NCBI GenBank assembly: GCA_963825545.1 | Contig: CAWGTR010000006.1 | Coordinates: forward strand, 223,475-287,474 | Length of the DNA stretch: 64,000 nt | Source: an uncultured Chloroflexia bacterium | Lineage (GTDB): Bacteria; Chloroflexota; Limnocylindria; Limnocylindrales; CSP1-4 | Direction of reading: 5' to 3' | The notes under the pieces: model-generated | Database searches by the model: none | Seen by the model: only the letters and a program-made list of their open reading frames with translations | What the model was told of the DNA's origin: nothing | Program-made: the position numbers and the translations under genes | Shown: positions 2,232 to 48,131 of the stretch, piece by piece | How positions within the stretch are numbered: position 1 is the stretch's first letter | Layout: each line of letters opens with the position of its first letter

Positions 2232-2233
2232 GG

Positions 2234-3451
2234 ATGGACGGGTTCGAGGCCGGCCTGCGGCGCGTCCCCGGGCCGGAGCCGCTGCCCGTCAAGGGCGAGC
2301 CACGGCTTGTCGAGCGGATCCGCGCCGAGATCGCTTCGACCGGGCCACTGACGTTCGACCGATTCATGGAGCTCGCGCTCTACGAGCCGGATCTCGGCTA
2401 CTACCGCTCGCCGGCCGAGCGACCCGGTCGGGGTGGCGACTTCCTCACCGCGCCCGAGACGCACCCGATCTTCGGGGCGACGCTCGCCCGTCAGCTCGAC
2501 GAGGTTTACCGGCGGCTCGGCTCGCCGGGCCGGTTCGTCGTCCGCGAGTACGGCGCCGGGTCGGGGACGCTCGGACTGACGATCCTCCAGGCGATCGCCG
2601 GCGAGGGCCGTCTCGGCGAGGTCGCCGCGTCCCCGGCGCTTGCCCGGGCGATCCGCTACGCCCCGGTCGAGATCAACCCCTACCGTCGGGCAGAGCTCAT
2701 CGATCGGCTCACGGGCGCCGGGTTCGGCGGCGCCCTCGAGCTCGACCTCACGCCCGGCGTCGCCGTGCCCGGGGCGGTCGTCGCCAACGAGTTCCTCGAC
2801 GCGCTGCCGGTCCATCGCGTCGTCGGCCGGGCGGGCGGTGTGCGCGAGCTCCGGGTCGACTGGGCGGGTGACGGGTTCGCCGAGGTCGAGGCGGACCCAT
2901 CGACCCCGGCGATCGAGGCGCGGCTCGCGGCGGAGGGGATCGTGCTCGAGGACGGCATCCGGGCGGAGGTCTGTCTCGCGATCGACGGCTGGGTGGACGA
3001 AGTCGCGGCCGGCCTGGAGGGCGGGATCGTCGTCGTAATCGACTACGGCCGGGTGGCGATCGAGCTGTACGGCAGGCAGCGCCCGGCGGGCACGCTGATG
3101 GCCTACGCCGGCCATCGCGCGCACGACGATTGGGCCGTCGCCGTGGGTCGCCAGGACCTGACCGCCCACGTCGACTTCAGCGCCGTCGAGCGGGCCGCCG
3201 GCGCGGTCGGGCTCGACCAGCTGGGGCTGACCACCCAGGCCGAGTTCCTCGTCGGGGCCGGGATCGAGGAGCTGCTCGAATCGATCCGCTCCGATCCGTC
3301 GACCACGATCGAGTCCTGGCTGGCCGTCCGCTCGGCCGTCCGGCGACTGCTCGATCCGCGCGCGACCGGTGGCTTCCGCGTGGCGTTGCTCGGTCGTGGG
3401 ATCCCGATCGAGCCAGCGCTGCACGGCCTCGCCTACCGCCTCGGGCGCTGA
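2234..3451 (+). CDS. class I SAM-dependent methyltransferase, MidA/NDUFAF7 (DUF185) family
   Basis: MDGFEAGLRRVPG...LTFDRFMELALYEPDLGYYRS...GDFLTAPETHPIFGATLARQL...VVREYGAGSGTLGL... matches the MidA family. An in-frame upstream ATG at 2123 overlaps the preceding gene, so 2234 is preferred. The gene ends ~330 bp upstream of nuoA. Confidence 0.7.
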   Translation: MDGFEAGLRRVPGPEPLPVKGEPRLVERIRAEIASTGPLTFDRFMELALYEPDLGYYRSPAERPGRGGDFLTAPETHPIFGATLARQLDEVYRRLGSPGRFVVREYGAGSGTLGLTILQAIAGEGRLGEVAASPALARAIRYAPVEINPYRRAELIDRLTGAGFGGALELDLTPGVAVPGAVVANEFLDALPVHRVVGRAGGVRELRVDWAGDGFAEVEADPSTPAIEARLAAEGIVLEDGIRAEVCLAIDGWVDEVAAGLEGGIVVVIDYGRVAIELYGRQRPAGTLMAYAGHRAHDDWAVAVGRQDLTAHVDFSAVERAAGAVGLDQLGLTTQAEFLVGAGIEELLESIRSDPSTTIESWLAVRSAVRRLLDPRATGGFRVALLGRGIPIEPALHGLAYRLGR

Positions 3452-3779
3452 TTCGGGGGCCCCGAAGTACGGCATTCGCCCTATTGTCGGCGGACCCGCG
3501 AGGGGCGCAGGCTGGACTCGCCGGGGGGCGGCTCGCATCCCTGCTACGCGCGCTCGGCGCGAGTCGTCCCCCGGTATCCCATACCCCCTCCGGACCGTTC
3601 GGCGAGTACGCCCGGCGGTGCCTCGCCCGGGCGCCCGCGAGGGCGACCGCTGCTAGAATTGAGCGGCGTGGACCGCCCGGTCCCGTATGTCGTCCCGTGC
3701 CCGCACGGTTCCACATTCGCCGCGTCATGGAAACGCCGCCCAGCCGCCACAGCAAGCGGGGCGTGTCCGCGAGGTTGGA

Positions 3780-4136
3780 TTGACCGCCATCTGGTACGTC
3801 GTCGGGTTCGCCTTCGCCGGCGTCTCGTTCGTCCTGCTGACGATCGGCGCGGCCTGGCTGATCTCGCATCGGAACCGCGGGGACGAGCACAAGGGCCTCC
3901 CCTACGAGTCGGGGATCGACACCTTCGGCGACACCCACGGGCGGTTCGGGCTGTCGTTCTACATCTACGCCTTGCTGTTCGTGGCGTTCGACATCGAGGT
4001 GGTCTTCATCTACCTCTGGGCGATCGTCTTCCGGGATCTCCTCATCGGCGGCTTCGTGAGCATGCTCGTGTTCGTGGCGGTCCTGCTGCTCGGGCTGGCC
4101 TACGCCTGGCGGAAGGGCGTCCTCACGTGGCGCTGA
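3780..4136 (+). CDS. nuoA: NADH-quinone oxidoreductase subunit A
   Basis: Three-TM protein ...TAIWYVVGFAFAGVSFVLLTIGAAWLISHRNRGDEHKGLPYESGIDTFGD...FYIYALLFVAFDIEVVFIYLWAIVF... Preferred start is TTG 3780 (118 aa, typical NuoA length). An upstream in-frame ATG at 3687 would add a non-conserved Arg/Pro-rich leader. Confidence 0.75.
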   Translation: MTAIWYVVGFAFAGVSFVLLTIGAAWLISHRNRGDEHKGLPYESGIDTFGDTHGRFGLSFYIYALLFVAFDIEVVFIYLWAIVFRDLLIGGFVSMLVFVAVLLLGLAYAWRKGVLTWR

Positions 4137-4858
4137 AGGGCAACCCCCCGGCGGCGGACCTTCCCGCGCCGGCAGCGCCCGACGCAGCGACGAACGCGGT
4201 CGTGGTCGCCGGCGGGCGCGACCTGATCGTGCCGATCGTGGTCCCGAACACGCTCTGGGAATCGCCCACCACGGCGGCGTACGGCGGCCAGCCCGTCGGC
4301 GACACCCACCTGCGCGAGTTCGGGGCGACCGAGCTGGGGCGCCACGACGACGCCCGCTGGGGCGCCCTCGAGGTGATCCCGACGAAGGCGGACATCGTCC
4401 TCGACCTGATCCGGGCCAACAGCCTCTGGCCGCTGCTGTCGGGGCTGGCCTGCTGCGCGATCGAGATGATGTCGGCGGCGACCTCGAAGAACGACATGGA
4501 CCGCTGGGGCATGTTCCCGTTCCGGGCCAGCCCGCGCCAGGCCGACGTGCTGATCGTCGCCGGCACGCTGACGACGAAGATGGCCGGTCCGCTCATCCGC
4601 CTGTGGGAGCAGATGCCCGAGCCGAAGTGGTGTGTCGCGATGGGCGACTGCACCTGCTCGGGCGGCCGCTACAAGCGCAGCTACTCGACGATCCAGGGGA
4701 TCGACCGGGTCCTCCCGGTCGACGTCTACGTGCCCGGCTGCCCGCCCCGCCCGGAAGGGCTGATCTACGGGATGATGCGGCTCCAGCAGCTCGTCCTGGA
4801 GCGGCGCGGCCACTGGCCGGAGCGAGCGATCGGCCCGACGGTCCCGGACGGGGTCTGA
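4127..4858 (+). CDS. nuoB: NADH-quinone oxidoreductase subunit B (N2 cluster subunit)
   Basis: GTG start overlaps the nuoA stop. ...ANSLWPLLSGLACCAIEMM...DMDRWGMFPFRASPRQADVLIVAGTLTTKMAGP...KWCVAMGDCTCSGGRY...VYVPGCPPRPEGL matches NuoB, including the CC/C/C ligands. Confidence 0.85.
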   Translation: MALKGNPPAADLPAPAAPDAATNAVVVAGGRDLIVPIVVPNTLWESPTTAAYGGQPVGDTHLREFGATELGRHDDARWGALEVIPTKADIVLDLIRANSLWPLLSGLACCAIEMMSAATSKNDMDRWGMFPFRASPRQADVLIVAGTLTTKMAGPLIRLWEQMPEPKWCVAMGDCTCSGGRYKRSYSTIQGIDRVLPVDVYVPGCPPRPEGLIYGMMRLQQLVLERRGHWPERAIGPTVPDGV

Positions 4859-4863
4859 GCGCG

Positions 4864-5416
4864 ATGGATCGAGCCCTCAAGCGCCGCCTCGAGGCCCGCT
4901 TCGGAGAGCGGCTGCTCGGACCCGTCCGGCAGCGCCACGACGAGACCGAGATCCGGGTCGCGCCGGGCGACCTGCCCGAGGTGATGCGCGCCCTCCACGA
5001 CGAGCCCGACCTGCGCTTCGAGTCGCTGATGGACCTGTGCGGCGTCGACACCGGGACCGCGATGCAGACGGTCTACCACCTGTGGAGCGCGCACCACCTC
5101 GGACTGGCTCCGGGTGATCGCCGACGGCCTGTCCCGCGACGAGCCTCGGGTCCCGTCGGTCACCTTCCTGTGGAAGGGCGCCGAGTGGCAGGAGCGCGAG
5201 GCGTACGACATGTTCGGGATCGCGTTCGAGGGGAACCGCGACCTGCGCCGGATCTATATGCCGCCGGACTACACGAGCTTCCCGCTGCGCAAGGACTTCT
5301 ACCTGCCCGATGACGCCGCCCGCTCGCCCGGCGGCGGTGTCCGCCAGATGGAGCAGACCCACGCCCCGACGAACGCCACGGCCGAGGCGGCCGTGCGCCG
5401 CGCCAAGGTGAGCTGA
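4864..5416 (+). CDS. nuoC: NADH-quinone oxidoreductase subunit C, with an apparent +1 frameshift near nt 5098
   Basis: N-part (frame 1): [79 protein letters not shown]-part (frame 2): [70 protein letters not shown]. Both halves are NuoC-like; the frame changes between 5097 and 5099. Confidence 0.75.
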
Positions 5417-5426
5417 GGTCGATCGG

Positions 5427-6644
5427 ATGACCGTCGTTCGCCATCCGTCCGCCGACGACCCGCGGGTCATGCTCGACGAGGAGGTCGGGGTCTTCGAGCC
5501 CGTCCCGCCGTATCCCCCGCGGACCGAGCGTGAGGCCGAGTTCTACTCGCTCGGCGCGGGCGAGATGTTCATCAACATGGGGCCCCAGCACCCATCGACC
5601 CACGGCGTCCTGCGGGTCGTCCTCAAGATCGAGGGCGAGCGGGTCGTGGACCTCGACCCGGTCCTCGGCTACCTCCACCGCGGGGTCGAGAAGCTGTGCG
5701 AGAACGCCGACTACCACCACACGATCGCCTACACCGACCCGCTCGAGTACGTCAGCGCGCTGTTCAACGAATGGGCGCCGGTGATGGCCTTCGAGAAGCT
5801 GCTCGACGTCGAGGTGCCCCGCCGGGCCGAATACATCCGGGTCCTGTCCGGGGAGCTCAACCGGGTCGCCAGCCACGCCCTGTTCATGGGCTGGATGGCG
5901 CTCGACCTGGGCGGCCTCACCCCGATCCTGTGGAGCTTCATCGAGCGCGACGACATCGTCGACATGCTCGCCTCGCTGACCGGCCAGCGGATGCTCTTCA
6001 ACTACTTCCGGATCGGCGGCGTCAACGGCGACCTGAACCACGAGTTCATGAGCCGGCTCGGGACGTGGATGAGCAAGGCGACCGAGCAGATCGAGGCGAA
6101 CATCACGCTGCTCAACGAGAACGAGATCTTCGTCCGGCGGATGCGCGGCCTGGGAATCCTCGACCGTGAGACGGCCTTCCGGATGTGCATGACCGGCCCG
6201 AACATCCGCGCCTCGGGCGTGCCGCTCGACATGCGCCGCTCGCACCCGTACAGCGTTTACCCGGAGCTCGAGTTCGACATCCCGACCCGCCAGGAGGGCG
6301 ACTGCCTGGCGCGCTACCTCCTCCGCCTCGAGGAGATCAAGCAGAGCCTCCGGATCATCGACCAGTGCCTGAACCAGATGCCCGACGGGCCGATCATGGC
6401 CAAGCTGCCGCGGCTCATGCGACCCCGACCCGGGCGGGCCTACGCGGCCGTCGAGGGTCCGCGCGGCCAGTACGCGACCTATGCGATCAGTGACGGGACG
6501 GACCAGCCGTACCGGATGCGGATCCACGACCCGAGCTTCGTCCACCTCCAGGCCGTCGGGCTGCTGACGCCCGGCAACCTGATCGCCGACACGATGGCGA
6601 TCATGGCCTCGCTCGATCCGATCATGGGCGGCGTCGACAAGTAG
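5427..6644 (+). CDS. nuoD: NADH-quinone oxidoreductase subunit D
   Basis: 405 aa; ...FINMGPQHPSTHGVLRVVLKIEGERVVDLDPVLGYLHRGVEKLCE... is canonical 49-kDa subunit sequence. Confidence 0.9.
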   Translation: MTVVRHPSADDPRVMLDEEVGVFEPVPPYPPRTEREAEFYSLGAGEMFINMGPQHPSTHGVLRVVLKIEGERVVDLDPVLGYLHRGVEKLCENADYHHTIAYTDPLEYVSALFNEWAPVMAFEKLLDVEVPRRAEYIRVLSGELNRVASHALFMGWMALDLGGLTPILWSFIERDDIVDMLASLTGQRMLFNYFRIGGVNGDLNHEFMSRLGTWMSKATEQIEANITLLNENEIFVRRMRGLGILDRETAFRMCMTGPNIRASGVPLDMRRSHPYSVYPELEFDIPTRQEGDCLARYLLRLEEIKQSLRIIDQCLNQMPDGPIMAKLPRLMRPRPGRAYAAVEGPRGQYATYAISDGTDQPYRMRIHDPSFVHLQAVGLLTPGNLIADTMAIMASLDPIMGGVDK

Positions 6645-7991
6645 ATGACGATGCTCAGCCGCTCGTTCGGCCGCCTGACCCTGCCGGGCAAGATCATCTT
6701 CACGGTCGTCCCCCTCGTCCTCATCGTCGGCGGGGTGGCCACGGCGGCCGCGATCATCGCCGCGCCGCTCGTCATCGACTTCGTCGGGGCGAACCTGCCG
6801 CTCTTCCGGTTCGTGCTGGCGGCGACGGTCGTGCTGCTGATGACCGTCCCGACGGCGTTCCTGATCATCTACATGGAGATGAAGGTCATCGCCCTGATGA
6901 ACCTTCGCTACGGGCCGGACCGGGTGGGCCCGTTCGGCTCGCTCCTGTCGGTCGTGCACGGGCTCAAGGTCCTGATGAAGGAGGACTTCACCCCGACCGG
7001 TGCCGACTCGGTGGTCTTCACCTGGGCGCCGGTGGTCGTCTACATGGCCAGCGTGATGACCCTGCTGGTGCTGCCGTTCGCCCCGGGCCTGTTCGGGCAG
7101 GACCTCAACATCGGGCTGCTGTACTTCTTCGCGATGGGCGGGCTGGGCGTCGTCGGGCTGCTCATGGCCGGCTGGTCGAGCTTCAACAAGTACTCGCTGC
7201 TCGGCGGGCTGCGCTCGGCGGCGCAGGTCGTCAGCTACGAGATTCCGCTGACCCTGTCGGTCGTCGGGATCATCCTCCTTGCCGGGACCCTGAGCCTCAA
7301 CAAGATCACGCTCGACCAGTCCGGCAGCCTGTTCGACTGGTTCGTGTTCAAGCAGCCGCTGGCGTTCCTCATCTTCTTCATCGCCGCTACGGCCGAGGCC
7401 AACCGGACGCCGTTCGACCTGACCGAGGCCGACTCGGAGATCGTGGCCGGGTTCGCCACCGAGTACTCGGGGATGCGCTTCGGGTTCTTCTTCTTCGCCG
7501 AGTACGTGAACGTGTTCATCATCTCGGGGCTCACCGTCGCGCTCTTCTTCGGCGGCTGGAACGCCCCGTTCGACTGGCCCTGGCCGATCACGCCGCACCC
7601 GGATCCGGGCGGCATGGGGGTCGGCCTGCTCGTCGCCATCGGGCTCGTGCCGCCGATCCTGATCCTCGTCCTCGGGCTGCCGTTCTATCTCGTCAACAGC
7701 CGGACGAAGCTGTGGCAGGCCCTGGTGATCGGGTTCGTCCTGTTCAACGTCCTCGCGGTCGCCGCGCTCATCGGGCTTGCCTTCCTCAGCTTCGACTGGG
7801 TCGTCGGCCTGTTCTGGTTCCTGATGAAGACGTACGCCTTCGTGTTCATGTTCGTCTGGATGCGCGGCACGCTGCCGCGGGTCCGGATCGACCAGCTCAT
7901 GGGCTTCGCCTGGAAGTGGCTGCTGCCCGCCTCGCTGCTCAACCTGTTCGTGACCGCCCTGGCGATCGTGCTCGTCGAGGGCGTTCGATGA
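6645..7991 (+). CDS. nuoH: NADH-quinone oxidoreductase subunit H
   Basis: 448 aa polytopic membrane protein; ATG immediately follows the nuoD TAG. NuoH/ND1 motifs ...MNLRYGPDRVGPFGSLLSVVHGLKVLMKEDF...GWSSFNKYSLLGGLRSAAQVVSYEIP... Confidence 0.9.
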   Translation: MTMLSRSFGRLTLPGKIIFTVVPLVLIVGGVATAAAIIAAPLVIDFVGANLPLFRFVLAATVVLLMTVPTAFLIIYMEMKVIALMNLRYGPDRVGPFGSLLSVVHGLKVLMKEDFTPTGADSVVFTWAPVVVYMASVMTLLVLPFAPGLFGQDLNIGLLYFFAMGGLGVVGLLMAGWSSFNKYSLLGGLRSAAQVVSYEIPLTLSVVGIILLAGTLSLNKITLDQSGSLFDWFVFKQPLAFLIFFIAATAEANRTPFDLTEADSEIVAGFATEYSGMRFGFFFFAEYVNVFIISGLTVALFFGGWNAPFDWPWPITPHPDPGGMGVGLLVAIGLVPPILILVLGLPFYLVNSRTKLWQALVIGFVLFNVLAVAALIGLAFLSFDWVVGLFWFLMKTYAFVFMFVWMRGTLPRVRIDQLMGFAWKWLLPASLLNLFVTALAIVLVEGVR

Positions 7992-8001
7992 GCGCCGGGC
8001 G

Positions 8002-8664
8002 ATGACGTTCGTCCCGGGCCTTGGCCTCGTCAAGGGGATGGCGCTGACCCTGCGCCGCTTCTTCGAGCCGAAGGTGACGAACCTGTACCCGGAGGTCCCC
8101 GCCCAGATCCCGCCCAAGTTCCGCGGCCGGCTGCAGCTCCTGTACGACGAGTGGGGCACGCTCAAGTGCGAGACCTGCTTCCAGTGCGCCCAGGCCTGCC
8201 CGATCGAGTGCATCGACATGGGCGGTACCGACACCAAGGGCCGTTACGCCGTCCACTGGGGGGCGCCCGAGACGTACGGCGAACGGCGCGAGGAGTCGGC
8301 CCTCCGGCGGTCGGGCCGGACCGTGCCCGACCCCGCTTACGAGCACTTCCACGGGATCGATCTGGCGGCCGTGGATGCCGTTCTCGACGAGGTCGACCAC
8401 GATCCGCGCGAGATGCTCCGGATCCTGGCCGCGATCCAGGACGCGTACGGCTACGTACCCGTGGCCGCGCTCAAGCGGGTCAGCGAGGCGACCGGCGCGT
8501 GGTACGCGATGCTGTATGGCACGGCGACCTACTACGACCACCTCGCGGTCGGGGCACGGGAGACGGCGCCGAGCGCCGACGACGCCTACGTCGGAGCGCT
8601 CGAGGGGGCCCTCCACGGTGGCATCGACGACGGGGCGGCGAGCCGGGACGCGGGCGCCCGATGA
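8002..8664 (+). CDS. fusion protein: NuoI N-terminal half (single CxxCxxCxxxCP motif) joined to a NuoE-like N-terminal helical domain lacking the [2Fe-2S] cysteines
   Basis: Residues 1-75: LYPEVPAQIPPKFRGRLQLLYDEWGTLKCETCFQCAQACPIECIDM is the NuoI N-terminus plus first ferredoxin motif; no second CxxCxxCxxxCP follows in any frame. Residues ~120-175: REMLRILAAIQDAYGYVPVAALKRVSEATGAWYAMLYGTATYYDHL resemble the NuoE N-domain. The protein ends 40 aa later with no Cys. The stop overlaps the next ATG (ATGA). Confidence 0.65.
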   Translation: MTFVPGLGLVKGMALTLRRFFEPKVTNLYPEVPAQIPPKFRGRLQLLYDEWGTLKCETCFQCAQACPIECIDMGGTDTKGRYAVHWGAPETYGERREESALRRSGRTVPDPAYEHFHGIDLAAVDAVLDEVDHDPREMLRILAAIQDAYGYVPVAALKRVSEATGAWYAMLYGTATYYDHLAVGARETAPSADDAYVGALEGALHGGIDDGAASRDAGAR

Positions 8665-10004
8665 CCGGCCTCCTGAAGACTCCGACCGGCTGGCCGAAGG
8701 TCCTCATCGAGTCGCCCCAGGCCGTCGACCCGACCGACCTCGATCGAGCCGTCCGCGATGGCGCCTTCGAGGCGCTCCGGACCGCGGTCCGGGCGATGAC
8801 CCCGAGCCAGGTCATCGGGGCGGTGGTCGGCTCCGGCCTGCGCGGTCGCGGCGGCAGCGGCTTCCCGACCGGGGCGAAGTGGCGGGTCGCGGCGAGCGCC
8901 CCCGGACCCACCCGCTACGTCGTCGCCAACGGCTACGGCGCCGACCCGGCGGTCCAGACCGACCGGACGCTCATGGAGCTGGCCCCGTATGCCGTGGTCG
9001 AGGGGGTCGCCCTGGCGGCCTATGCGATCGGGGCCGGCGAGGCGATCATTGCCGTCCGGGCCGATGCCGCCGAGGCGATCCGCCGGCTTGACGCGGCGAT
9101 CGGCGCCGCCGAGGAGGCCGGCTTCGCGGGGCCCGACGTCCTGGAGTCCGGCTGGGACCTGTCGATCCAGGTCCGCCCCGTCCAGGGTGCCTACATGCTC
9201 GGCGAGGAGACCGTCCTGCTCAAGGCGCTCGAGGGCAAGCGGGGCCAGCCCGAGCAGCGGCCGCCGCACCCGGCGGAGCGCGGGCTGTTCGGCCGCCCGA
9301 CGGTCGTCGACAACGTCCAGACCCTGGCGAGCGTGCCCTGGATCGTCCGCAACGGACCCGAGGCATACGCCGCGATCGGCTCGACGGCGAGCCCAGGGAC
9401 GATCCTCGTCCAGCTCCGCGCGCCGGCCGGCGGTGGGATCGCCGAGGTGCCGCTCGGGACCCCGCTCCGGGAGCTCATCGCGCTCGCCGGCCCGCGGGCC
9501 GGCCGATCGGACGGCGGCCGGCCGGTCAAGGCGGTCCTCGTCGGCGGACCCGCGGGTGGGTTCCTGCCGGCGGACCTGCTCGACACGCCGTTCGACTTCG
9601 AGTCGCTCCGCGACGTCGGGGCGCACGTCGGATCCGGCTCCATCGTCGTCGCCGACGACCGGGCCTGCGTCGTCGACCTGGCCCGGCTGCTCAGCCGCTT
9701 CTGCGCCGATCAGGCCTGTGGCAAGTCGATCCCCTGCCGGATCGGCACCCGTCGCCTGTCCGAGATCGCCGACCGGATCGCGGTCGGCACGCCGCGCCCG
9801 ACCGATGCCGGGCTGGCCGCCGACCTGGCCGCCGACATCCAGGGTTCCGGCCTGTGCGACCACGAGCGGCTGGCGACGCTGCCGATGACCAGCGCGATGC
9901 GATACTTCCGTGCCGAGCTCGACGACCATCTCCTCCGCAGCACCTGCCCCGCCGGCGTCTGCCACCCGATCAAGGTGGCCGTCGGGGCCGACCGAGGCGC
10001 TTGA
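8661..10004 (+). CDS. NuoF-like (51-kDa) subunit homolog with divergent FMN/NADH and N3-cluster motifs
   Basis: 447 aa. SGLRGRGGSGFPTGAKW and GAYMLGEETVLLKALEGKRGQPEQRPPHPAERGLFGRPTVVDNVQT align to NuoF. The YLVCNADEGEPGT motif is replaced by YVVANGYGADPAV. The Cys region reads FCADQACGKSIPCRIGT...GLCDH instead of ESCGKCTPCREG...C. Confidence 0.75.
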   Translation: MTGLLKTPTGWPKVLIESPQAVDPTDLDRAVRDGAFEALRTAVRAMTPSQVIGAVVGSGLRGRGGSGFPTGAKWRVAASAPGPTRYVVANGYGADPAVQTDRTLMELAPYAVVEGVALAAYAIGAGEAIIAVRADAAEAIRRLDAAIGAAEEAGFAGPDVLESGWDLSIQVRPVQGAYMLGEETVLLKALEGKRGQPEQRPPHPAERGLFGRPTVVDNVQTLASVPWIVRNGPEAYAAIGSTASPGTILVQLRAPAGGGIAEVPLGTPLRELIALAGPRAGRSDGGRPVKAVLVGGPAGGFLPADLLDTPFDFESLRDVGAHVGSGSIVVADDRACVVDLARLLSRFCADQACGKSIPCRIGTRRLSEIADRIAVGTPRPTDAGLAADLAADIQGSGLCDHERLATLPMTSAMRYFRAELDDHLLRSTCPAGVCHPIKVAVGADRGA

Positions 10005-12640
10005 TGACCGACCTGATCGTCCGACCCGAAGGCGCCCCGCCCGCCGAGCCGGGCGTCGCCGAGACCCTCGCGGAGCGACTGCTCGACGTGTCGGCGCCGC
10101 AGCGCCCGATGAGCGCCCCGGTGATCCGGATCGAGGTCGACGGGCGGGTCGTCGAGGGTCGCGACGGCCAGACGATCCTCGAGGTCTGCCGCGACAACGG
10201 GATCGAGGTCCCGACGCTGTGCTACGAGCCGAAGCTGCCCGGCTTCGGCGCCTGCCGGATGTGCGTCGTCGAGGTCGAGGGCGAAGAGCACCCGCCGATC
10301 AGCTGCTCGCGCGCGGCAGAGGCCGGCATGAAGGTCCAGACCCAGACCGACGAGGTGCGCCGCCTGCGGGCCACGAACCTCGAGCTGATCTTCAGCGACC
10401 ACAACGCCTACTGCCTGCCGCCCTGCCAGAACAAGTGCCCGAGCCACATCGACATTCCCGGCTTCCTCAAGCAGAACGCCGAGGGCGAGTGGCGCGAGTC
10501 GACCCGGATCTTCAAGCGGACGATCCCCTTCCCGAGCGTGCTCGGACGGGTCTGCCCGGCGCCGTGCGAGGAGCACTGCCGGCGCGACGAGGTCGATGAG
10601 GCGATCGCCATCCGTGACAGCCACCGCTACGCCGGGGACCAGGTCATCAAGGCGATGCTCGACGACGGGATCGACCCGCCGCTGCCATTCGAGCCCCAGC
10701 CGAAGACGGGTCGCCGGGCGGCCGTCATCGGGTCCGGCCCGGCCGGGATGAGCGCCGCCTACTACCTCCTCCTGGCCGGTCACGACGTGACCGTCTTCGA
10801 GCGCGACCCGGCGCCCGGCGGGATGCTCCGCTACGGGATCCCGCAGTACCGGCTCCCGAAGATCGAGGTCCTCGAGGCGGAGTACGAGTCGGTCAGCCGG
10901 CTGGGCGGGAAGATCGTATGCAACCAGGCCCTCGGGCGCGACTTCACCCTCGACGACCTCCAGGGCCAGGGCTACGACGCCGTCCTGGTGGCGATCGGCT
11001 GCTACGACACGAACAAGCTGGGCATCCCGAACGAGGACGCCGACGGCGTCATCGACGGCCTCGAATACCTCCAGACGGCCACCCTCGGCCTGCCCTACCC
11101 CGGGCACCGCGGGAAGCGCGTCGTCGTGATCGGCGGGGGGTTCACCTCGATGGACTGCTCGCGGACGTCGATCCGCCAGGGTGCCGCCGAGGTGACCCTC
11201 GTCTATCGCCGGGACATGAAGGACATGCCCGCCTCGAACGAGGTCCACGAGGCGATCGAGGAAGGCGTCCAGGCGATCTTCCAGGCCGCCCCGACGCGGG
11301 TCATCGTCGACGAGAAGACCGGCCGGGTGAGCGGCGTCGAGTTCATCCGCAACAAGCTCGGCGAGCCCGACGCGTCGGGCCGGCGGCGGCCCGAGCCGTC
11401 GCCCGGCACGGAGTTCACAATCGATTGCGACCGGGTCCTCCTGGCGATCGGCCAGGGCCCCGACCTGACCTGGATCGGGCCGGGCTCGGAGGGTCCCGAG
11501 GCGACGAAGCAGCGCCGGCTGAAGGCCGACCCGGTGACGTTCGAGACCGGACGGCCCGGCGTGTTCGGGACCGGCGACGTGCGGGTCGGCGCGGCCACCG
11601 TCGTCCAGGCGATCGCCGAGGGCCGCCGGGCGTCGTACGCCGCGGACGCCTACCTGCGTGGGATGGACCTCGGGACGATCCGGGCCCGCCAGACGCTCGC
11701 CGAGCCGCAGCCCGAGTTCCTGTCGATCGTGCCATTTACGAGCGAGGTCAAGGAACCCCGCTACCGGCTCAAGGCGATGGACGCCGAGGTCCGCAACAAG
11801 AGCTACCTCGAGTACGAGATCCCGTACACCCCCGCGGAGGCGGTCGCGGAGTCGACCCGCTGCCTGCAGTGCACCTGCGAGGCGATTGGGTTCTGCGACC
11901 TGCGCCGGCTCGGAATCGAGTACGGGACGACACTGCGCACGCTCGAGCCGCAGTTCCACCAGGGCGCGGGCTACCGGAGCGTCACCGAGAACCGCTTCAC
12001 CGGGATCAACCACGACTACGTGCGCGACGACAGCCACGCCTTCATCCTCCGCGAGCCGTCGCGCTGCATCGACTGCGGCCGCTGCGCCCAGGTCTGCTCC
12101 GAGGTCGTCGGGGCCGCCTGCTACGACTTCATGCGGATCGGCTTCGACACGCTCGTGACGACCCCGCTCGACATGAGCCTCAACGACACCCCGTGCGTGT
12201 CCTGTGGGCGCTGCGCCGAGACCTGCCCGACCGGGGCGCTGATGCCGAAGCCACGGGTGCTCGAGAAGTACGAGGTCGACGAGAGCCGCTGCATCCTGTG
12301 CGGGATCTGCGTCGATGCCTGTCCGTACGACGCCCTCCGCGACGGCGCCGACTTCGAGCTCAGCCACGTCGATCGCTCCGAGCCGATGGTCGACCTGATC
12401 GCCCTGGCGGCCATCGACCGGGAGACGGAGGCGACCTACATCCGCCGCGAGCGCGACTGGGTCGCCCGCGCCACCGCCGCCGGGCGTCCACCGGATCCGT
12501 CGCGCCTCCTGCCGGTCCTGCCGCCATCCGTCACCGGGGGCGGGGCGGGCCTGGCCGCCGCGCGCCACGGAGAGCGAACGGGCGGCAACGGCGCCTCCGG
12601 CAACGGCGCGGCCGGCGCCGGCCACGCCCATCACGAGTAG
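10004..12640 (+). CDS. multidomain Fe-S flavoprotein: NuoG-like N-terminal [2Fe-2S] domain, inserted GltD-like NAD(P)H:FAD oxidoreductase (glutamate synthase small-subunit fold), NuoG-like N5/N4 cluster region, and a C-terminal 2x[4Fe-4S] NuoI-like ferredoxin domain; no molybdopterin domain
   Basis: 878 aa. ATG overlaps the preceding stop (TGATG). 2Fe-2S pattern CYEPKLPGFGACRMCVVEVEGEEHPPISC (C-x10-C-x2-C-x13-C). The GltD block CLPPCQNKCPSHIDIPGF...GRVCPAPCEEHC...AAVIGSGPAGMSAAYYL...GIPNEDADGV...GKRVVVIGGGFTSMDCSRTSIRQGA...GEPDASGRRRPE...FGTGDVRVGAATVVQAIAEGRRAS aligns closely to E. coli GltD. Then LRRLGIEYG...SRCIDCGRCAQVCSEVVG...TCPTGAL (NuoG N4-like), then CVSCGRCAETCP and CILCGICVDACPYDAL...DFE (NuoI-like). 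Confidence 0.8.
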   Translation: MTDLIVRPEGAPPAEPGVAETLAERLLDVSAPQRPMSAPVIRIEVDGRVVEGRDGQTILEVCRDNGIEVPTLCYEPKLPGFGACRMCVVEVEGEEHPPISCSRAAEAGMKVQTQTDEVRRLRATNLELIFSDHNAYCLPPCQNKCPSHIDIPGFLKQNAEGEWRESTRIFKRTIPFPSVLGRVCPAPCEEHCRRDEVDEAIAIRDSHRYAGDQVIKAMLDDGIDPPLPFEPQPKTGRRAAVIGSGPAGMSAAYYLLLAGHDVTVFERDPAPGGMLRYGIPQYRLPKIEVLEAEYESVSRLGGKIVCNQALGRDFTLDDLQGQGYDAVLVAIGCYDTNKLGIPNEDADGVIDGLEYLQTATLGLPYPGHRGKRVVVIGGGFTSMDCSRTSIRQGAAEVTLVYRRDMKDMPASNEVHEAIEEGVQAIFQAAPTRVIVDEKTGRVSGVEFIRNKLGEPDASGRRRPEPSPGTEFTIDCDRVLLAIGQGPDLTWIGPGSEGPEATKQRRLKADPVTFETGRPGVFGTGDVRVGAATVVQAIAEGRRASYAADAYLRGMDLGTIRARQTLAEPQPEFLSIVPFTSEVKEPRYRLKAMDAEVRNKSYLEYEIPYTPAEAVAESTRCLQCTCEAIGFCDLRRLGIEYGTTLRTLEPQFHQGAGYRSVTENRFTGINHDYVRDDSHAFILREPSRCIDCGRCAQVCSEVVGAACYDFMRIGFDTLVTTPLDMSLNDTPCVSCGRCAETCPTGALMPKPRVLEKYEVDESRCILCGICVDACPYDALRDGADFELSHVDRSEPMVDLIALAAIDRETEATYIRRERDWVARATAAGRPPDPSRLLPVLPPSVTGGGAGLAAARHGERTGGNGASGNGAAGAGHAHHE

Positions 12641-12652: not shown

Positions 12653-13204
12653 GTGCCGATCCCGGACACGATCCCGGTCATCGGGGCGACTTGGAACGAC
12701 GCCCTGTTCGTGATCTTCGCCGGGATCCTCCTCGGATCCGGGCTGCTCGTCGTCACCCTCCGCGACATCATCCGCTGCGGGCTGGCGATGATCGTCTGCT
12801 TCGGCGCCCTGGCCGGCATCTACGTCATCCTCGGCGCACCGCTCATCGCCGGGGCCCAGGTGCTCGTCTACATCGGCGCGATCAGCGTGCTCATCCTGTT
12901 CGCCATCATGCTCACCCAGACGAAGGCCGCCCCGGCCCGCCTCGTGTTCCAGACCCAGGCGGTCCCGGCGGCGATCGCCGCGCTCGTCCTGGCAGTGATC
13001 CTCGCGCTCGTGGTCGTGTCGACGGACTGGGGTGCCGCGGCGGCGGTCGCGCGGACGGCGACGGACGACATGGCCCGCCTCCTGTTCCACGACTATGTCC
13101 TGCCGTTCGAGGTCGTGAGCGTCCTGCTCCTCGCGGCGGTCGTCGGCGGGGTCTACCTTGCCAAGCGCGAGGTCGACGCGACCGAGGAGCGCGGCCCGCG
13201 ATGA
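12653..13204 (+). CDS. nuoJ: NADH-quinone oxidoreductase subunit J
   Basis: GTG start 9 nt after a GGAGG Shine-Dalgarno. 183-aa membrane protein ...FVIFAGILLGSGLLVVTLRDIIRCGLAMIVCFGALAGIYVILGAPLIAGAQVLVYIGAISVLILFAIM... Confidence 0.85.
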   Translation: MPIPDTIPVIGATWNDALFVIFAGILLGSGLLVVTLRDIIRCGLAMIVCFGALAGIYVILGAPLIAGAQVLVYIGAISVLILFAIMLTQTKAAPARLVFQTQAVPAAIAALVLAVILALVVVSTDWGAAAAVARTATDDMARLLFHDYVLPFEVVSVLLLAAVVGGVYLAKREVDATEERGPR

Positions 13205-13512
13205 CGAACTCCCTCGATGCCTACCTGATCCTGTCCGGCCTGCTGTTCTGCCTCGGGACCTTCGGCTTCCTTGCCCGCCGCAACGCGATCAGCATGCTCA
13301 TGTCGATCGAGCTGATGCTCAACGCCGTCAACCTCTCGATCGTCGCCTTCGGGGCGTTCGTGCCCAAGCTCCAGGGCCAGGGCTCGATCATCGCCCTGGT
13401 GGTGATGGCCGTGGCGGCGGGTGAGGCGACGGTCGGGCTGGCCATCGTCATGGCGATCTTCCGCAACCGGCGGACGCCGCTCGTCGACGAGTACGACTCG
13501 ATGCGGCAGTAA
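13201..13512 (+). CDS. nuoK: NADH-quinone oxidoreductase subunit K
   Basis: ATGA overlap with nuoJ. MTNSLDAYLILSGLLFCLGTFGFLARRNAISMLMSIELMLNAVNLSIVAFGAF...GEATVGLAIVMAIFRNRRT is canonical NuoK. Confidence 0.9.
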   Translation: MTNSLDAYLILSGLLFCLGTFGFLARRNAISMLMSIELMLNAVNLSIVAFGAFVPKLQGQGSIIALVVMAVAAGEATVGLAIVMAIFRNRRTPLVDEYDSMRQ

Positions 13513-13516
13513 GCCG

Positions 13517-15487
13517 ATGCCGTACGACGCGCTGATCGTCGCCATCCCGGCGCTGCCGATCGCCGGCTTCGCCTTCACCGCCCTGTTCGGCCGGCGCATC
13601 CAGGCGCGGCTCGGCCGGAACGCGGCCAGCGCCGTCCCGCTCGCCGTGGTGATCCTGAGCTGGCTGGCGGCGATGATCGTCGTGGTCCCCGCGCTCGGGC
13701 ATGCCGAGCCATTCGGCGAGCGCGGTCTCGACTTCACGCTGTACACCTGGATCCCGGCCGGGAACTTCGTCGTCGACGTCGGGTTCCACGTCGACGCCCT
13801 GACGGCCTGCCTCCTGATCGTGGTGACGACGATCGGGATGCTCGTCCACGTCTACTCGGTCGGGTACATGGCCCACGACCCCGGGACGTGGCGGTTCTTC
13901 GCCTACCTCAACCTGTTCATGTTCTCGATGCTGCTGCTCGTGCTGGCCGACAGCTTCCTCGTGATCTTCGTGGCCTGGGAGCTGGTCGGGCTGTCGAGCT
14001 ACCTGCTGATCGGGTTCTGGTACCGCAAGCCGACCGCGGCGCTCGCCGCGAAGAAGGCGTTCATCGTCAACCGTGTCGGGGACGTCGGCTTCGCGCTCGG
14101 GATCATGCTCATCTTCGTGAGCCTCGGGACGCTCAACGTCCAGGCGGTGCTCGGGTCGATCGGGACGCTCGACCAGTTCACGATCGTGGCCATCGCGCTG
14201 CTCGTGTTCTGTGGCGCAGTCGGCAAGAGCGCCCAGTTCCCGCTCCACGTCTGGCTGCCCGACGCGATGGAGGGCCCGACCCCCGTCTCGGCGCTGATCC
14301 ATGCCGCGACGATGGTCAACGCCGGGGTCTACCTGATCGCGCGGGTCAACCCGATCTTCGGCCACGCCCAGGGCGCGATGGTCGTGGTGGCGGCGATCGG
14401 GATCTTCACCGCGCTGCTCGCCGCGTCGATCGCGTTCACCCAGACCGACATCAAGCGCGTCCTCGCCTACTCGACGTTGTCCCAGCTCGGCTACATGTTC
14501 GCCGCGCTCGGCGTCGGCGCCTGGATCGGCGCCATCTTCCACCTCATGGCCCACGGTTTCTTCAAGGGCCTCCTGTTCCTCGATTCGGGGTCGGTGATCC
14601 ACGCCGTCCACGAGGAGCAGGACATGCGCCGGATGGGCGGGCTGTGGCGCAAGATCCCGATCACGTACTGGACGATGCTCATCGGCGCGCTGGCGATCTC
14701 GGGGATCCCGCCGCTGGCCGGCTTCTTCAGCAAGGACGAGATCCTCGGCGAGGCGTTCAAGAACGGCTTCCTCGTCGTCTGGGCGATCGGCTTCGCGGTC
14801 GCCGGGATGACCGCCTTCTACATGTTCCGGCTGATGGGGATGACCTTCTGGGGCCCGAGCCACGTCGACCCGAAGGTGGAGCCCACGATCCATGAGTCGC
14901 CCCGCTCGATGACCGTGCCGCTCATCCTGCTGGCGATCGCGTCGATCTTCCTCGGGCTCGTGATCGGCGTGCCGCTCGGTGCCGGCCTGATCAACACCTG
15001 GCTCGAGCCGGTGTTCGCCGAGACGATCGCGCTGACTGGCGGCGAGGCGGCTCCGTTCGGCCCGCTTGACGTAGCCCTGATCCTGGCCAGCGTGTCGATC
15101 GCGACGATCGGGATCATCGTCGCCTGGCGCTTCTTCGGGGTCGAGCTCGGCGCCCTCCGCCGCGCTCCGCGGCCGAAGGAGGTCACGGCGATCGCCACGG
15201 CCAGCCCCCTGACCCGGTTCCTCTACCGCGCTTCGCTCAACAAGTGGTGGTTCGACGACCTCAACGACCTGTTGTTCATCCGGATCGGCGGGCGGATCGC
15301 GGCCGCGGCCTGGTGGTTCGACCGGACGATCATCGACGGCACGGTCAACGAGATCGGCACAATCGCTGTCGGCGTCGGCCGGGAGCTGCGCCGGGTCCAG
15401 ACCGGTCGGGTCCAGAACTACGCCCTCGGGATCGCCATCGGGCTGATCGTGATGGCCGGCTCGTACCTCGTGATCGTGGGGCGCTGA
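13517..15487 (+). CDS. nuoL: NADH-quinone oxidoreductase subunit L
   Basis: 656-aa antiporter-like subunit, MPYDALIVAIPALPIAGF...WELVGLSSYLLIGFWYRKP...HAATMVNAGVYLIARV...; the long C-terminal region is typical of NuoL. Confidence 0.9.
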   Translation: MPYDALIVAIPALPIAGFAFTALFGRRIQARLGRNAASAVPLAVVILSWLAAMIVVVPALGHAEPFGERGLDFTLYTWIPAGNFVVDVGFHVDALTACLLIVVTTIGMLVHVYSVGYMAHDPGTWRFFAYLNLFMFSMLLLVLADSFLVIFVAWELVGLSSYLLIGFWYRKPTAALAAKKAFIVNRVGDVGFALGIMLIFVSLGTLNVQAVLGSIGTLDQFTIVAIALLVFCGAVGKSAQFPLHVWLPDAMEGPTPVSALIHAATMVNAGVYLIARVNPIFGHAQGAMVVVAAIGIFTALLAASIAFTQTDIKRVLAYSTLSQLGYMFAALGVGAWIGAIFHLMAHGFFKGLLFLDSGSVIHAVHEEQDMRRMGGLWRKIPITYWTMLIGALAISGIPPLAGFFSKDEILGEAFKNGFLVVWAIGFAVAGMTAFYMFRLMGMTFWGPSHVDPKVEPTIHESPRSMTVPLILLAIASIFLGLVIGVPLGAGLINTWLEPVFAETIALTGGEAAPFGPLDVALILASVSIATIGIIVAWRFFGVELGALRRAPRPKEVTAIATASPLTRFLYRASLNKWWFDDLNDLLFIRIGGRIAAAAWWFDRTIIDGTVNEIGTIAVGVGRELRRVQTGRVQNYALGIAIGLIVMAGSYLVIVGR

Positions 15488-15491
15488 GCCG

Positions 15492-17039: not shown

Positions 17040-17046
17040 GCGGGCG

Positions 17047-19805: not shown

Positions 19806-19872
19806 GGCGGGAGGGTACCAGTACCATGCGGCCGCGGCGCCCTCATCGGGGAACGGCTAGGATGACGGCCCC

Positions 19873-47820: not shown

Positions 47821-47850
47821 TTGACACCCCCTTCGCGACCGCCCCATAAT
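47821..47850 (+). promoter_or_regulatory. sigma70-like promoter upstream of rpmH (TTGACA-18 nt-CATAAT)
   Basis: TTGACA at 47821-26; CATAAT at 47845-50; about 110 nt upstream of the rpmH ATG. Confidence 0.45.
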
Positions 47851-47964
47851 CGCGGGAACGTCGACGCGCCCTGCGCTCTCGAGCGCCAGGCGCGTTTACG
47901 TGCCTTTCGGGGGTCGAGAACGGTCGCCCCAGAGGCCGGATGGAGAGGATCGCGCACAGCCCCG

Positions 47965-48099: not shown

Positions 48100-48131
48100 C
48101 GAGCGAACGCGGGGCCCCGGCGCCGCGGCTC

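What the first reader, a model, noticed from the sequence alone, without database searches (positions are those of the whole stretch)
8661..10004. NuoF-like subunit has degenerate FMN/NADH-binding and N3-cluster motifs
The glycine-rich loop (SGLRGRGGSGFPTGAKW) and the GAY-x-GEET block are conserved. The invariant acidic motif YLVCNADEGEPGT is replaced by YVVANGYGADPAV, losing the Asp/Glu side chains I recall contacting FMN/NADH. The N3 Cys triad ESCGKCTPCREG reads ADQACGKSIPCRIGT, with the middle Cys replaced by Ser and a possible compensating Cys four residues upstream. Together with the GltD flavoprotein fused into NuoG, this suggests the canonical NADH site may be impaired or altered and hydride input may have moved to the GltD FAD site.
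Basis: partly seen in the sequence, partly recalled or inferred. Interest (0 to 1): 0.65.

Follow-up and report, generated by a model that had tools for sequence, protein, structure and literature searches.

The report
Remodelled flavoprotein in NADPH-fed complex I
The odd "NuoF" is not a decaying gene but the conserved, trimmed flavoprotein of a transhydrogenase-type (NfnABC/StnABC) module that soil Chloroflexota have spliced into respiratory complex I, giving the enzyme an NADPH site plus an altered NADH site whose activity still has to be measured.

Summary
The 447-aa protein at 8661-10004 (F*) reads N-G-Y-G-A-D-P where relatives read N-A-D-E-G-D/E-P. Its N3/B1 cluster motif is C-G-K-S-I-P-C, so the middle Cys is missing.

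"Degenerate" is the wrong word. Both variants are fixed in 197 distinct orthologues from a fully syntenic operon in 80 species-level Limnocylindrales genomes. The rest of the FMN/NAD(H) pocket is the most constrained part of the protein, and dN/dS is 0.14-0.28.

F* is closer to bifurcating NfnB/StnB than to true NuoF. It lacks their extra cluster domains. The "NuoE" beside it is the N-half of NuoI fused to only the helical domain of NuoE, with no N1a cluster. The "NuoG" is colinear with NfnA/StnC, GltD included, and ends in the C-half of NuoI.

The remodelled loop is the one that normally lies between FMN and N1a. Glu95 is missing in every sampled lineage that lacks a full N1a ligand set. I therefore read the change as a consequence of N1a loss.

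Most likely the enzyme is a two-entry NAD(P)H:quinone oxidoreductase. An inactive NADH site cannot be excluded in silico.

The parts
8661..10004 (+). F*: 447-aa NuoF/BfuB-like flavoprotein subunit, the subject of the finding
   Evidence: Pfam Complex1_51K and NADH_4Fe-4S. Best solved relatives are Csac NfnB 9bov_B (7e-112) and T. sibiricus NfnB 9n5u_B, ahead of true NuoF 8e9g_F (5e-80). Below the NCBIfam NuoF cut-off, 345 vs 558.65 bits. AF2 model pLDDT 89.4, TM 0.92 to 9bov_B.
8835..8882 (+). Gly-rich FMN/NAD(H) loop G59-LRGRGGSGFPTGAKW-74, conserved
   Evidence: G62, G64, G65, G67 and K73 are 100%; L60, R61 and R63 are 99%; F68 is Phe/Tyr in 195 of 197 orthologues. Equivalent to Csac NfnB loop 1 with Phe159 and Lys164.
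8928..8948 (+). Remodelled loop N90-G-Y-G-A-D-P96 (canonical N-A-D-E-x-D/E-P)
   Evidence: Alignment. Y92, G93, A94 and P96 are 100%, D95 196/197, N90 194/197. In Aquifex NuoF this loop lies between FMN and the N1a-binding loop of NuoE.
9186..9212 (+). G176-AYMLGEET-184 block (Tyr180 and Glu184/185 equivalents), conserved
   Evidence: Y178, E182 and E183 are 100% in 197 orthologues.
9702..9737 (+). N3/B1 cluster motif C348-A-D-Q-A-C353-G-K-S356-I-P-C359, with the middle Cys replaced
   Evidence: Alignment. C353 and C359 are 100%; position 356 is Thr 158 / Ser 39; C348 is Cys 182 / Ser 15.
9855..9863 (+). Fourth cluster ligand C399, followed by invariant D400-H401
   Evidence: C399 and H401 are 100%. 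H401 sits at the position of E. coli NuoF His400, which touches an N3 iron and the flavin (PMC8357420).
9945..9962 (+). C429-P-A-G-V-C434: with C336 and H423, the 3-Cys/1-His set that binds Zn (site B2) in Bfu enzymes
   Evidence: C336, H423, C429 and C434 are invariant across 60 F* and Bfu-type sequences and absent from true NuoF rows. The Zn site is described.
8002..8664 (+). E*: the N-terminal half of NuoI (res 9-81, nt 8026-8244, one CxxCxxCxxxCP motif) fused to the N-terminal helical domain of NuoE/BfuC (res 118-181, nt 8353-8544). No thioredoxin-like [2Fe-2S] domain.
   Evidence: NCBIfam NuoI models match res 9-81 to profile positions 13-86 of 180. PDB hits: E. coli NuoI 23-86, Csac NfnC 9bov_C 20-82, StnA 18-80. 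There are no Cys after residue 70.
10004..12640 (+). G*: 878-aa NfnA/StnC-like subunit. Domains: [2Fe-2S] (nt 10121-10348); GltD with 2x[4Fe-4S], FAD and NADPH (10412-11662); CxxCxC..C (11861-11896); 2x[4Fe-4S] (12065-12226); C-terminal half of NuoI (12254-12391). No molybdopterin-like domain.
   Evidence: Pfam. Colinear with Csac NfnA 9bov_A 3-722 (5e-165), T. sibiricus NfnA and StnC. TIGR01971 NuoI positions 71-116 of 121 match res 751-796. All 32 Cys plus the GSGPAG, GGGFTSMD and VYRR motifs are invariant in about 70 genomes.
3687..8000 (+). nuoA (3687-4136), nuoB (start uncertain, ends 4858), nuoC (start uncertain, ends 5313), nuoD (5427-6644), nuoH (6645-7991)
   Evidence: Pfam. NuoB keeps the N2 ligands (CC, C, GCPP), and NuoD has the quinone-type HPSTHG / GYLHRG motifs.
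12653..18519 (+). nuoJ (12653-13204), nuoK (about 13200-13424), nuoL (13421-15487), nuoM (15492-17039), nuoN (17047-18519)
   Evidence: Pfam. nuoK is assigned only from conserved tblastn matches and position.
2123..3451 (+). Methyltransf_28 (NDUFAF7-like) gene just upstream of the operon
   Evidence: Pfam 8e-47. Present upstream wherever the locus reaches that far, in all but one case.

Best explanation
F* is the flavoprotein (BfuB/NfnB-type) subunit of a chimeric respiratory complex I found in Limnocylindrales and other Chloroflexota.

An NfnABC/StnABC-like three-subunit module has been inserted into nuoI of an 11-subunit-type complex I. [quoted passage not shown]

The loop N-G-Y-G-A-D-P is the segment that normally sits between FMN and the N1a/C1 cluster. 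It most likely changed because that cluster was lost, removing the need for the Glu95-centred gating loop (inferred).

F* most likely still holds FMN and exchanges hydride with NAD(H). It passes electrons through a three-Cys cluster to the invariant [2Fe-2S] of G* (inferred). That cluster is either [4Fe-4S] completed by His401 or Cys348, or [3Fe-4S].

NADPH enters at the inherited GltD-FAD site of G*. That site lies on the shorter route, via the 4Fe-4S clusters of G* and the reassembled NuoI clusters, to N2 and quinone (inferred).

The enzyme is therefore read as a proton-pumping NAD(P)H:quinone oxidoreductase with two hydride sites.
For: Ancestry of F*:
- Sequence and fold are nearest to NfnB/StnB.
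- The Bfu Zn-site ligands are kept.
- On an NJ tree the chimeric F* proteins form one clade next to Bfu/Hox, apart from NuoF.

The module and its insertion:
- G* is colinear with NfnA/StnC.
- E* and G* carry the two halves of NuoI.
- The operon is syntenic in 80 species-level genomes and in six more distant lineages.

Constraint on F*:
- Motifs are fixed in 197 orthologues.
- Pocket positions are 25/34 invariant vs 125/413 elsewhere, p = 1.3e-6.
- dN/dS is 0.14-0.28.
- Known NAD(H) contacts are retained: F68, K73, E183 and an aromatic at 203 match Csac NfnB Phe159, Lys164, Glu274 and Phe294.
- The [2Fe-2S] of G*, whose only known role is to link B1/N3 to the chain, keeps all its Cys.

Link between the loop and N1a:
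- The Glu95-Ser96 peptide lies between FMN and the N1a loop.
- Glu95 is kept only in L082 and L086, whose E* keeps a thioredoxin-like domain with four Cys.
- It is Gly or Asp in L085 (second Cys motif lost), in L081/L084/L087 and in the window clade (no such domain).
- On the NJ tree this implies at least three separate losses.
Against: - Glu95 is reported as strictly conserved in characterised NuoF. With Asp103 it positions the nicotinamide, so its loss could cripple hydride transfer.
- No characterised homologue carries Tyr-Gly at these positions.
- F* has the highest dN/dS in the operon, about 2-3 times that of NuoD and G*.
- By analogy with the NfnABC wiring, the F* branch is not needed for NADPH-to-quinone transfer.
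- Cofactor content cannot be read from sequence, and no coordinates were available to inspect the modelled pocket.
- The Glu95/N1a association rests on seven sampled lineages and a distance tree.
Confidence: 0.55

Rival explanations
1. The F* nucleotide site no longer oxidises NADH, because flavin binding or hydride transfer is lost. NADPH at the GltD-FAD of G* is the only physiological input. F* and E* persist as a structural scaffold, perhaps also as an electron reservoir.
For: - Glu95, reported as strictly conserved in complex I, is lost, and Asp94 is replaced by a bulky Tyr.
- One N3 ligand is lost.
- Two of the three Phe said to handle NAD+ in StnB/HydB are not Phe here.
- G* is more conserved than F*: 80-91% vs 65-80% identity, with lower dN/dS.
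- By analogy with the NfnABC wiring, the FAD-to-NuoI route bypasses F*.
Against: - A scaffold would not be expected to keep GLRGRGG, KW, GAYMLGEET, NVQT and GAH-GSGS invariant over about 35% sequence divergence. The pocket is the most constrained region.
- Position 203 stays aromatic (His/Tyr), and Aquifex itself has Tyr there.
- Asp at the Glu97 position is normal for Bfu enzymes.
- The [2Fe-2S] of G* and three Cys plus a His of the F* cluster are invariant, which suggests electrons still pass.
Confidence: 0.3
2. F* binds FMN and NAD(H) but works mainly as an outlet or sensor. The complex would reduce NAD+ with NADPH-derived electrons (a built-in non-bifurcating transhydrogenase valve), or use NAD(H) occupancy to regulate NADPH:quinone turnover.
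For: - In StnABC and NfnABC the physiological direction is NADPH to FAD to clusters to FMN to NAD+.
- The module here keeps exactly that path while losing the ferredoxin branch.
Against: - Nothing in the sequence indicates direction.
- An aerobic heterotroph needs an NADH outlet to quinone.
- Whether the genomes hold another NADH dehydrogenase could not be checked.
Confidence: 0.12
3. The substitutions are decay of a pseudogene, or assembly or sequencing artefacts.
For: None beyond the unusual motifs themselves.
Against: - The ORF is intact and its start and stop overlap those of its neighbours.
- The same states occur in 197 orthologues from independent assemblies.
- dN/dS is well below 1.
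- The AF2 model is confident.
Confidence: 0.01

Closest known systems
NfnABC of Caldicellulosiruptor saccharolyticus (9bov/9bp5) and Thermococcus sibiricus (9n5u/9n5v), and StnABC of Sporomusa ovata (8oh5): Bfu-family electron-bifurcating transhydrogenases
   Same: - Three-subunit module in the same gene order.
- F* is 41-42% identical to NfnB/StnB, with TM 0.88-0.92.
- G* is colinear with about the first 700 residues of NfnA/StnC, including the GltD FAD/NADPH domain.
- E* matches the N-domain of NfnC/StnA.
- The Zn-site ligands are kept.
   Different: - No B3/B4 ferredoxin domain and no N-terminal thioredoxin-like domain in F*.
- No C1 [2Fe-2S] domain in E*.
- No molybdopterin-like C-terminal part in G*.
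- The loop is N-G-Y-G-A-D-P instead of N-A-D-E-G-D-P.
- The B1 cluster has three Cys.
- The module is covalently joined to the two halves of NuoI and encoded inside a nuo operon, so it is membrane-bound and non-bifurcating.
Canonical NuoF/Nqo1/NDUFV1 of respiratory complex I
   Same: Same fold, size (about 440 aa) and position in a nuo operon. Same Gly-rich loop and GAY-x-GEET block. Same C-terminal four-helix bundle holding the cluster next to the flavin.
   Different: - Scores below every NCBIfam NuoF equivalog cut-off.
- Lacks Asp94 and Glu95 and the middle N3 Cys.
- Has the Bfu Zn-site residues.
- Its NuoE partner has no N1a, and its NuoG partner is an NfnA-type GltD protein.
Predicted 'Nuo-Bfu' complexes (Geobacter, Deferribacteres, Planctomycetes, Nitrospirae; Schut et al. 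2022, PMC9304861)
   Same: A complex I whose NuoEFG input module is replaced by Bfu-type subunits encoded in the middle of the nuo cluster.
   Different: - Nuo-Bfu keeps the full bifurcating BfuBC core and is predicted to use NADH plus ferredoxin.
- It has no GltD domain and an intact nuoI.
- That survey required the ferredoxin-type domain in BfuB, so F*-type proteins were outside it.
Mbx-like complexes in which a gltD-related flavoprotein takes the place of NuoI (Degli Esposti 2015, PMC4758237)
   Same: A GltD-type NAD(P)H flavoprotein attached to a complex-I-like membrane enzyme at the NuoI position.
   Different: - There the flavoprotein substitutes for NuoI and is proposed as the acceptor (NAD(P)+-reducing) site of a ferredoxin-oxidising enzyme.
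- Here NuoI is split but retained, and a NuoF-like subunit is also present.
E. coli NuoF His400 next to cluster N3 (PMC8357420)
   Same: A His two residues after the fourth N3 Cys. In E. coli it contacts an N3 iron, a ligand Cys and the flavin. F* has an invariant His at the same position.
   Different: E. coli keeps all four Cys, so its His is a second-sphere residue. In F* it could be a true ligand, which is untested.

Membership tests
NuoF (complex I 51-kDa subunit, NCBIfam TIGR01959 equivalog) | Whole-protein score above the curated cut-off | tested here: not met
   345 bits vs cut-off 558.65; also below NF010120 and NF008436.
NuoF (complex I 51-kDa subunit, NCBIfam TIGR01959 equivalog) | Gly-rich loop GxRGRGGAGFxxxxKW and GAYxCGEET block | tested here: met
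   Present and almost invariant in 197 orthologues.
NuoF (complex I 51-kDa subunit, NCBIfam TIGR01959 equivalog) | Acidic loop N-A-D-E-x-E/D-P, with Glu95 strictly conserved | tested here: not met
   N-G-Y-G-A-D-P: Asp94 to Tyr, Glu95 to Gly. Conservation of Glu95 is stated in PMC6560083 and PMC9299107.
NuoF (complex I 51-kDa subunit, NCBIfam TIGR01959 equivalog) | Four-Cys ligation of cluster N3 (CxxCxxC...C) | tested here: not met
   C353, S356, C359, C399; position 356 is Thr or Ser in all 197 orthologues.
NuoF (complex I 51-kDa subunit, NCBIfam TIGR01959 equivalog) | Partner NuoE carrying the [2Fe-2S] cluster N1a | tested here: not met
   E* has only the helical N-domain and no Cys after residue 70.
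NuoF (complex I 51-kDa subunit, NCBIfam TIGR01959 equivalog) | Binds FMN and oxidises NADH | not testable with these tools
   Needs flavin analysis and enzyme assays. Sequence constraint on the pocket is high.
BfuB (HydB/NfnB/StnB) of bifurcating Bfu enzymes | Core (Rossmann, ubiquitin-like, four-helix bundle) closest to BfuB in sequence and fold | tested here: met
   Csac NfnB 7e-112, TM 0.92, rmsd 1.6 A. Sister to Bfu/Hox on the NJ tree.
BfuB (HydB/NfnB/StnB) of bifurcating Bfu enzymes | 3-Cys/1-His Zn (B2) site after the helical bundle | tested here: met
   C336, H423, C429 and C434 are invariant in F* and Bfu rows and absent in NuoF rows. Only the ligands were tested; metal identity was not.
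BfuB (HydB/NfnB/StnB) of bifurcating Bfu enzymes | C-terminal 2x[4Fe-4S] ferredoxin domain (B3, B4) and N-terminal thioredoxin-like domain (B5) | tested here: not met
   F* aligns to residues 106-525 of the 584-aa Csac NfnB and ends there. Pfam finds no Fer4 or thioredoxin-like domain.
BfuB (HydB/NfnB/StnB) of bifurcating Bfu enzymes | BfuC partner with the gating [2Fe-2S] C1 (the flavobicluster B1-FMN-C1) | tested here: not met
   E* lacks the domain. Definition of the bifurcation site comes from PMC11829005.
NfnA/StnC-type BfuA (applies to G*) | N-terminal [2Fe-2S], GltD domain with two [4Fe-4S], FAD and NADPH site, then CxxCxC..C and 2x[4Fe-4S] | tested here: met
   Colinear alignment over about 720 residues (5e-165). 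All Cys and dinucleotide motifs are invariant.
Respiratory complex I (Nuo/Nqo) | Subunits A, B, C, D, H, I, J, K, L, M, N with N2 ligands in NuoB and quinone-site residues in NuoD | tested here: met
   All are found in one operon. N2 Cys and NuoD motifs are present. NuoI is present only as two halves fused to E* and G*.

The most novel reading that the evidence does not exclude
Abundant soil and freshwater Chloroflexota respire with a natural complex I variant that differs from all characterised ones in four ways:
- Its input module is a de-bifurcated NfnABC/StnABC transhydrogenase spliced into NuoI.
- It oxidises NADPH at a GltD-FAD site.
- It has no N1a cluster.
- Next to the flavin it carries a three-Cys (His-ligated or [3Fe-4S]) cluster.

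Its remodelled FMN site would make it a proton-pumping NADPH (and NADH):quinone oxidoreductase with built-in NADPH/NADH exchange.
Probability: 0.4. Interest if true: 0.8.

Novelty: new variant of a known kind. Interest (0 to 1): 0.66.

Why it matters
The roles of cluster N1a and of the Glu95 loop in NADH turnover and in suppressing reactive oxygen species are still argued over. Here nature provides a widespread, strongly conserved enzyme family that lacks N1a and has rebuilt that loop. Sister lineages still carry intermediate states.

The family would also be, to my knowledge, the first natural complex I with an NADPH entry site. NADPH use has been obtained only by engineering E. coli NuoF (recalled from memory, not checked here).

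It also shows a new way for a soluble redox module to be attached to complex I: insertion into nuoI, leaving a split TYKY subunit.

Limnocylindria are abundant in soils and lakes, so the energetics of this enzyme bear on how these uncultured organisms make a living.

Tried and rejected
- **Decay or artefact.** Rejected.
- **Upstream Cys348 as the necessary replacement ligand.** Weakened. It is Ser in a 15-member subclade. P0125 lacks the middle Cys and has no upstream Cys. P0152 reads the same at the motif, but its C-terminus is unreliable.
- **Inspecting pocket geometry in the AF2 model** (Tyr92 relative to the flavin site; Cys348 and His401 distances to the cluster). Not possible, because the tools give no coordinates. 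The fold search only confirmed the NfnB-like fold.
- **Confirming what the Asp94 side chain contacts.** My recollection that it binds the FMN ribityl could not be verified. The T. thermophilus papers are not held, and the Aquifex paper and its supplements mention only its backbone carbonyl.
- **Looking for prior descriptions of this enzyme type.** None found. Only the related predicted Nuo-Bfu and Mbx-like GltD cases turned up.
- **P0157 and P0152.** Their C-terminal parts look frameshifted, so they were not used for the cluster motif.
- **Whether the same genomes also encode a canonical NuoEF or NDH-2.** Could not be tested.
Full report
**1. What is at 8661-10004**

The ORF translates to a 447-aa protein with the two Pfam domains of the complex I 51-kDa subunit. 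Its start overlaps the stop of the upstream gene. Its stop overlaps the start of the downstream gene. I call it F*.

HMMER alignments to solved homologues place Y92-G93 on the Asp-Glu of N-A-D-E-G-D-P. They place S356 on the middle Cys of C-G-K-C-x-x-C. The extra Cys (C348) lies five positions before C353.

**2. Not decay**

A search of 5.8 billion proteins returned over 7,000 relatives. The top 120 are at least 69% identical to F*. A scan of one genome per species found 370 genomic stretches encoding a relative. The best 80 are Chloroflexota MAGs, many named Candidatus Limnocylindrales.

In all 80 the gene order is the same: methyltransferase, A, B, C, D, H, E*, F*, G*, J, K, L, M, N.

Across 197 distinct orthologues with mean pairwise identity of 74%:
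- Y92, G93, A94 and P96 are 100% conserved; D95 is 196/197.
- Position 356 is Thr (158) or Ser (39).
- C353, C359, C399 and H401 are 100% conserved.
- C348 is Cys in 182 and Ser in 15, the latter forming one subclade.

Residues equivalent to the known FMN/NAD(H) contacts are invariant at 25 of 34 positions. Elsewhere the figure is 125 of 413 (Fisher p = 1.3e-6).

dN/dS against three relatives is 0.14-0.28. That is clearly purifying selection, though it is the highest value in the operon (NuoD 0.04-0.13, G* 0.05-0.17).

**3. What F* is**

Its best solved relatives are the B subunits of bifurcating Bfu enzymes:
- Csac NfnB, 9bov_B (7e-112)
- T. sibiricus NfnB, 9n5u_B
- S. ovata StnB, 8oh5_B
- HydB

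True NuoF scores lower (8e9g_F, 5e-80; entry names). F* falls below all NCBIfam NuoF cut-offs.

An AF2 model (pLDDT 89.4) superposes on Csac NfnB with TM 0.92 and rmsd 1.6 A.

F* aligns to residues 106-525 of the 584-aa NfnB. [quoted passage not shown] It does keep C336, H423, C429 and C434, the 3-Cys/1-His set that binds Zn in Bfu enzymes and is absent from NuoF.

**4. The neighbours change the picture**

*The "NuoE" gene (8002-8664, E*).* It is a fusion:
- Residues 9-81 are the N-terminal half of NuoI, with one CxxCxxCxxxCP motif.
- Residues 118-181 are the N-terminal helical domain of NuoE/NfnC.
- The thioredoxin-like [2Fe-2S] domain (N1a/C1) is missing and no Cys follows residue 70.

*The "NuoG" gene (10004-12640, G*).* It is colinear with the first 700-720 residues of NfnA/StnC. 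The order is [2Fe-2S], then the GltD domain, then a CxxCxC..C cluster, then a two-cluster ferredoxin fold. The GltD domain has two [4Fe-4S], FAD and an NADPH-type VYRR strand end.

G* does not continue into the molybdopterin-like domain. It ends with the C-terminal half of NuoI (TIGR01971 positions 71-116). There is no separate nuoI gene.

All 32 Cys of G* and its dinucleotide motifs are invariant. NuoB keeps the N2 ligands and NuoD the quinone-site motifs.

*Conclusion.* A transhydrogenase-type module has been inserted into nuoI of an 11-subunit-type complex I. It has been stripped of the clusters that define bifurcation: B3, B4, B5 and C1 (definitions).

**5. Why the loop changed**

In Aquifex NuoEF the Glu95-Ser96 peptide lies between FMN and the N1a-binding loop and flips with redox state. 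Glu95 and Asp103 hold a water that contacts the nicotinamide amide. Glu97 contacts the ribose through water. Those authors describe Glu95 as strictly conserved in complex I.

In the best 150 of the 50%-identity representatives, Glu95 is nearly universal, while Asp94 varies (D/E/S/H/N/A).

More distant relatives of F* all sit in the same chimeric operon. They form one clade next to Bfu/Hox on an NJ tree. All have a hydrophobic or aromatic residue at position 94.

| Lineage | State of E* | Position 95 |
|---|---|---|
| L082 (P0121), L086 (P0157) | Thioredoxin-like domain with four Cys | Glu kept |
| L085 (P0125) | Domain kept, second Cys motif lost | Gly |
| L081, L084, L087 | No domain | Gly or Asp |
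| Window clade | No domain | Gly |

On the tree this needs at least three losses of Glu95. Each coincides with an incomplete N1a site. I therefore read the loop remodelling as a consequence of losing N1a, not as evidence that the flavin was lost. This rests on seven lineages and a distance tree, so it is an inference.

**6. The cluster**

The middle Cys is lost in the window clade (Thr/Ser) and in P0125 (Ala). It also appears lost in P0152 (Thr). It is kept in P0121 and in the deep lineages.

Three Cys remain invariant. There are three candidate states:
- [4Fe-4S] completed by His401. This is the position of E. coli His400, which touches an N3 iron.
- [4Fe-4S] completed by Cys348.
- [3Fe-4S], the usual outcome when the middle Cys of such a motif is missing (general knowledge).

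Sequence cannot decide between them.

**7. How it most likely works**

By analogy with NfnABC, NADPH reduces the FAD of G*. Electrons then move through its [4Fe-4S] clusters (FAD-A7-A6-A3-A2-A1-B1-FMN).

In the chimera the second cluster of the ferredoxin fold leads, about 20 residues later, into the NuoI half. A plausible route is therefore FAD, then G* clusters, then N6a/N6b (rebuilt from E* and G*), then N2, then quinone.

F* sits on the branch A2-A1-B1-FMN. That branch keeps all its ligands and the F* pocket is under strong constraint. I therefore favour a working FMN/NAD(H) site as a second entry, or an exchange site (confidence 0.55). An inactive scaffold is less likely (0.3).

The GltD site was inherited together with F*.

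**8. Comparison and novelty**

The closest known systems are:
- NfnABC/StnABC (soluble, bifurcating).
- Canonical NuoEFG.
- The predicted Nuo-Bfu complexes, which keep the full BfuBC core and an intact NuoI.
- Mbx-like complexes with a GltD protein in place of NuoI.

I found no paper describing a complex I with a trimmed Nfn-type module, a split NuoI and no N1a. That is absence from the held library only.

I class it as a new variant of a known kind. The specific finding is real and informative, but its meaning comes from the larger architecture.

Noticed in passing
window 8002-8244 and 12254-12391: nuoI is split. Its N-terminal half (first Cys motif) is fused to the front of the NuoE-like gene. 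Its C-terminal half (second Cys motif) is fused to the end of the NuoG/GltD gene. There is no stand-alone nuoI. The same holds in distant relatives, e.g. L081 9397-10044.
   Followed up: yes
window 2123-3451: A Methyltransf_28 gene sits just upstream of nuoA. This is the family of NDUFAF7, which I recall as the arginine methyltransferase acting on mitochondrial NDUFS2. It is syntenic in nearly all 80 genomes, hinting at NuoD arginine methylation in bacteria.
   Followed up: partly
window 9666-9668, 9927-9929, 9945-9962: F* keeps the four residues (C336, H423, C429, C434) that bind Zn in bifurcating Bfu enzymes, although the ferredoxin domain that the Zn hinge normally connects is gone.
   Followed up: partly
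L081 13726-21371; L084 13903-21296; L087 9792-10853: In the deeper Chloroflexota lineages the cluster ends after G*. nuoJ-N are not adjacent. Rubrerythrin, pyruvate:ferredoxin oxidoreductase or unrelated genes follow, so the membrane arm must be encoded elsewhere, or the module may serve another partner.
   Followed up: no
L082 9156-10001; L086 5153-5998: Sister lineages keep a thioredoxin-like domain in E* with an unusual Cys pattern: C-R-C-P-A-C plus a single Cys in the second motif. This could be a non-standard [2Fe-2S] site.
   Followed up: partly
window 44461-49910: dnaN, dnaA and a yidC-type insertase lie about 26 kb downstream of the operon, so the nuo cluster is close to the likely replication origin.
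   Followed up: no
window 29952-35396 (-): A very long ORF (1814 aa) with protein O-mannosyltransferase (PMT) domains only in its C-terminal third. The N-terminal 1000 residues have no Pfam match.
   Followed up: no
window 18553-20583; L082 19796-21356: A trehalose-phosphatase gene (minus strand) and a sortase gene follow nuoN both in the window and in the sister lineage L082, so synteny extends beyond the operon.
   Followed up: no
L055 and L059: One MAG (MFD06298.bin.2.198) carries the whole operon on two different contigs at similar identity to the window. This could be a duplication, strain mixture or binning redundancy.
   Followed up: no
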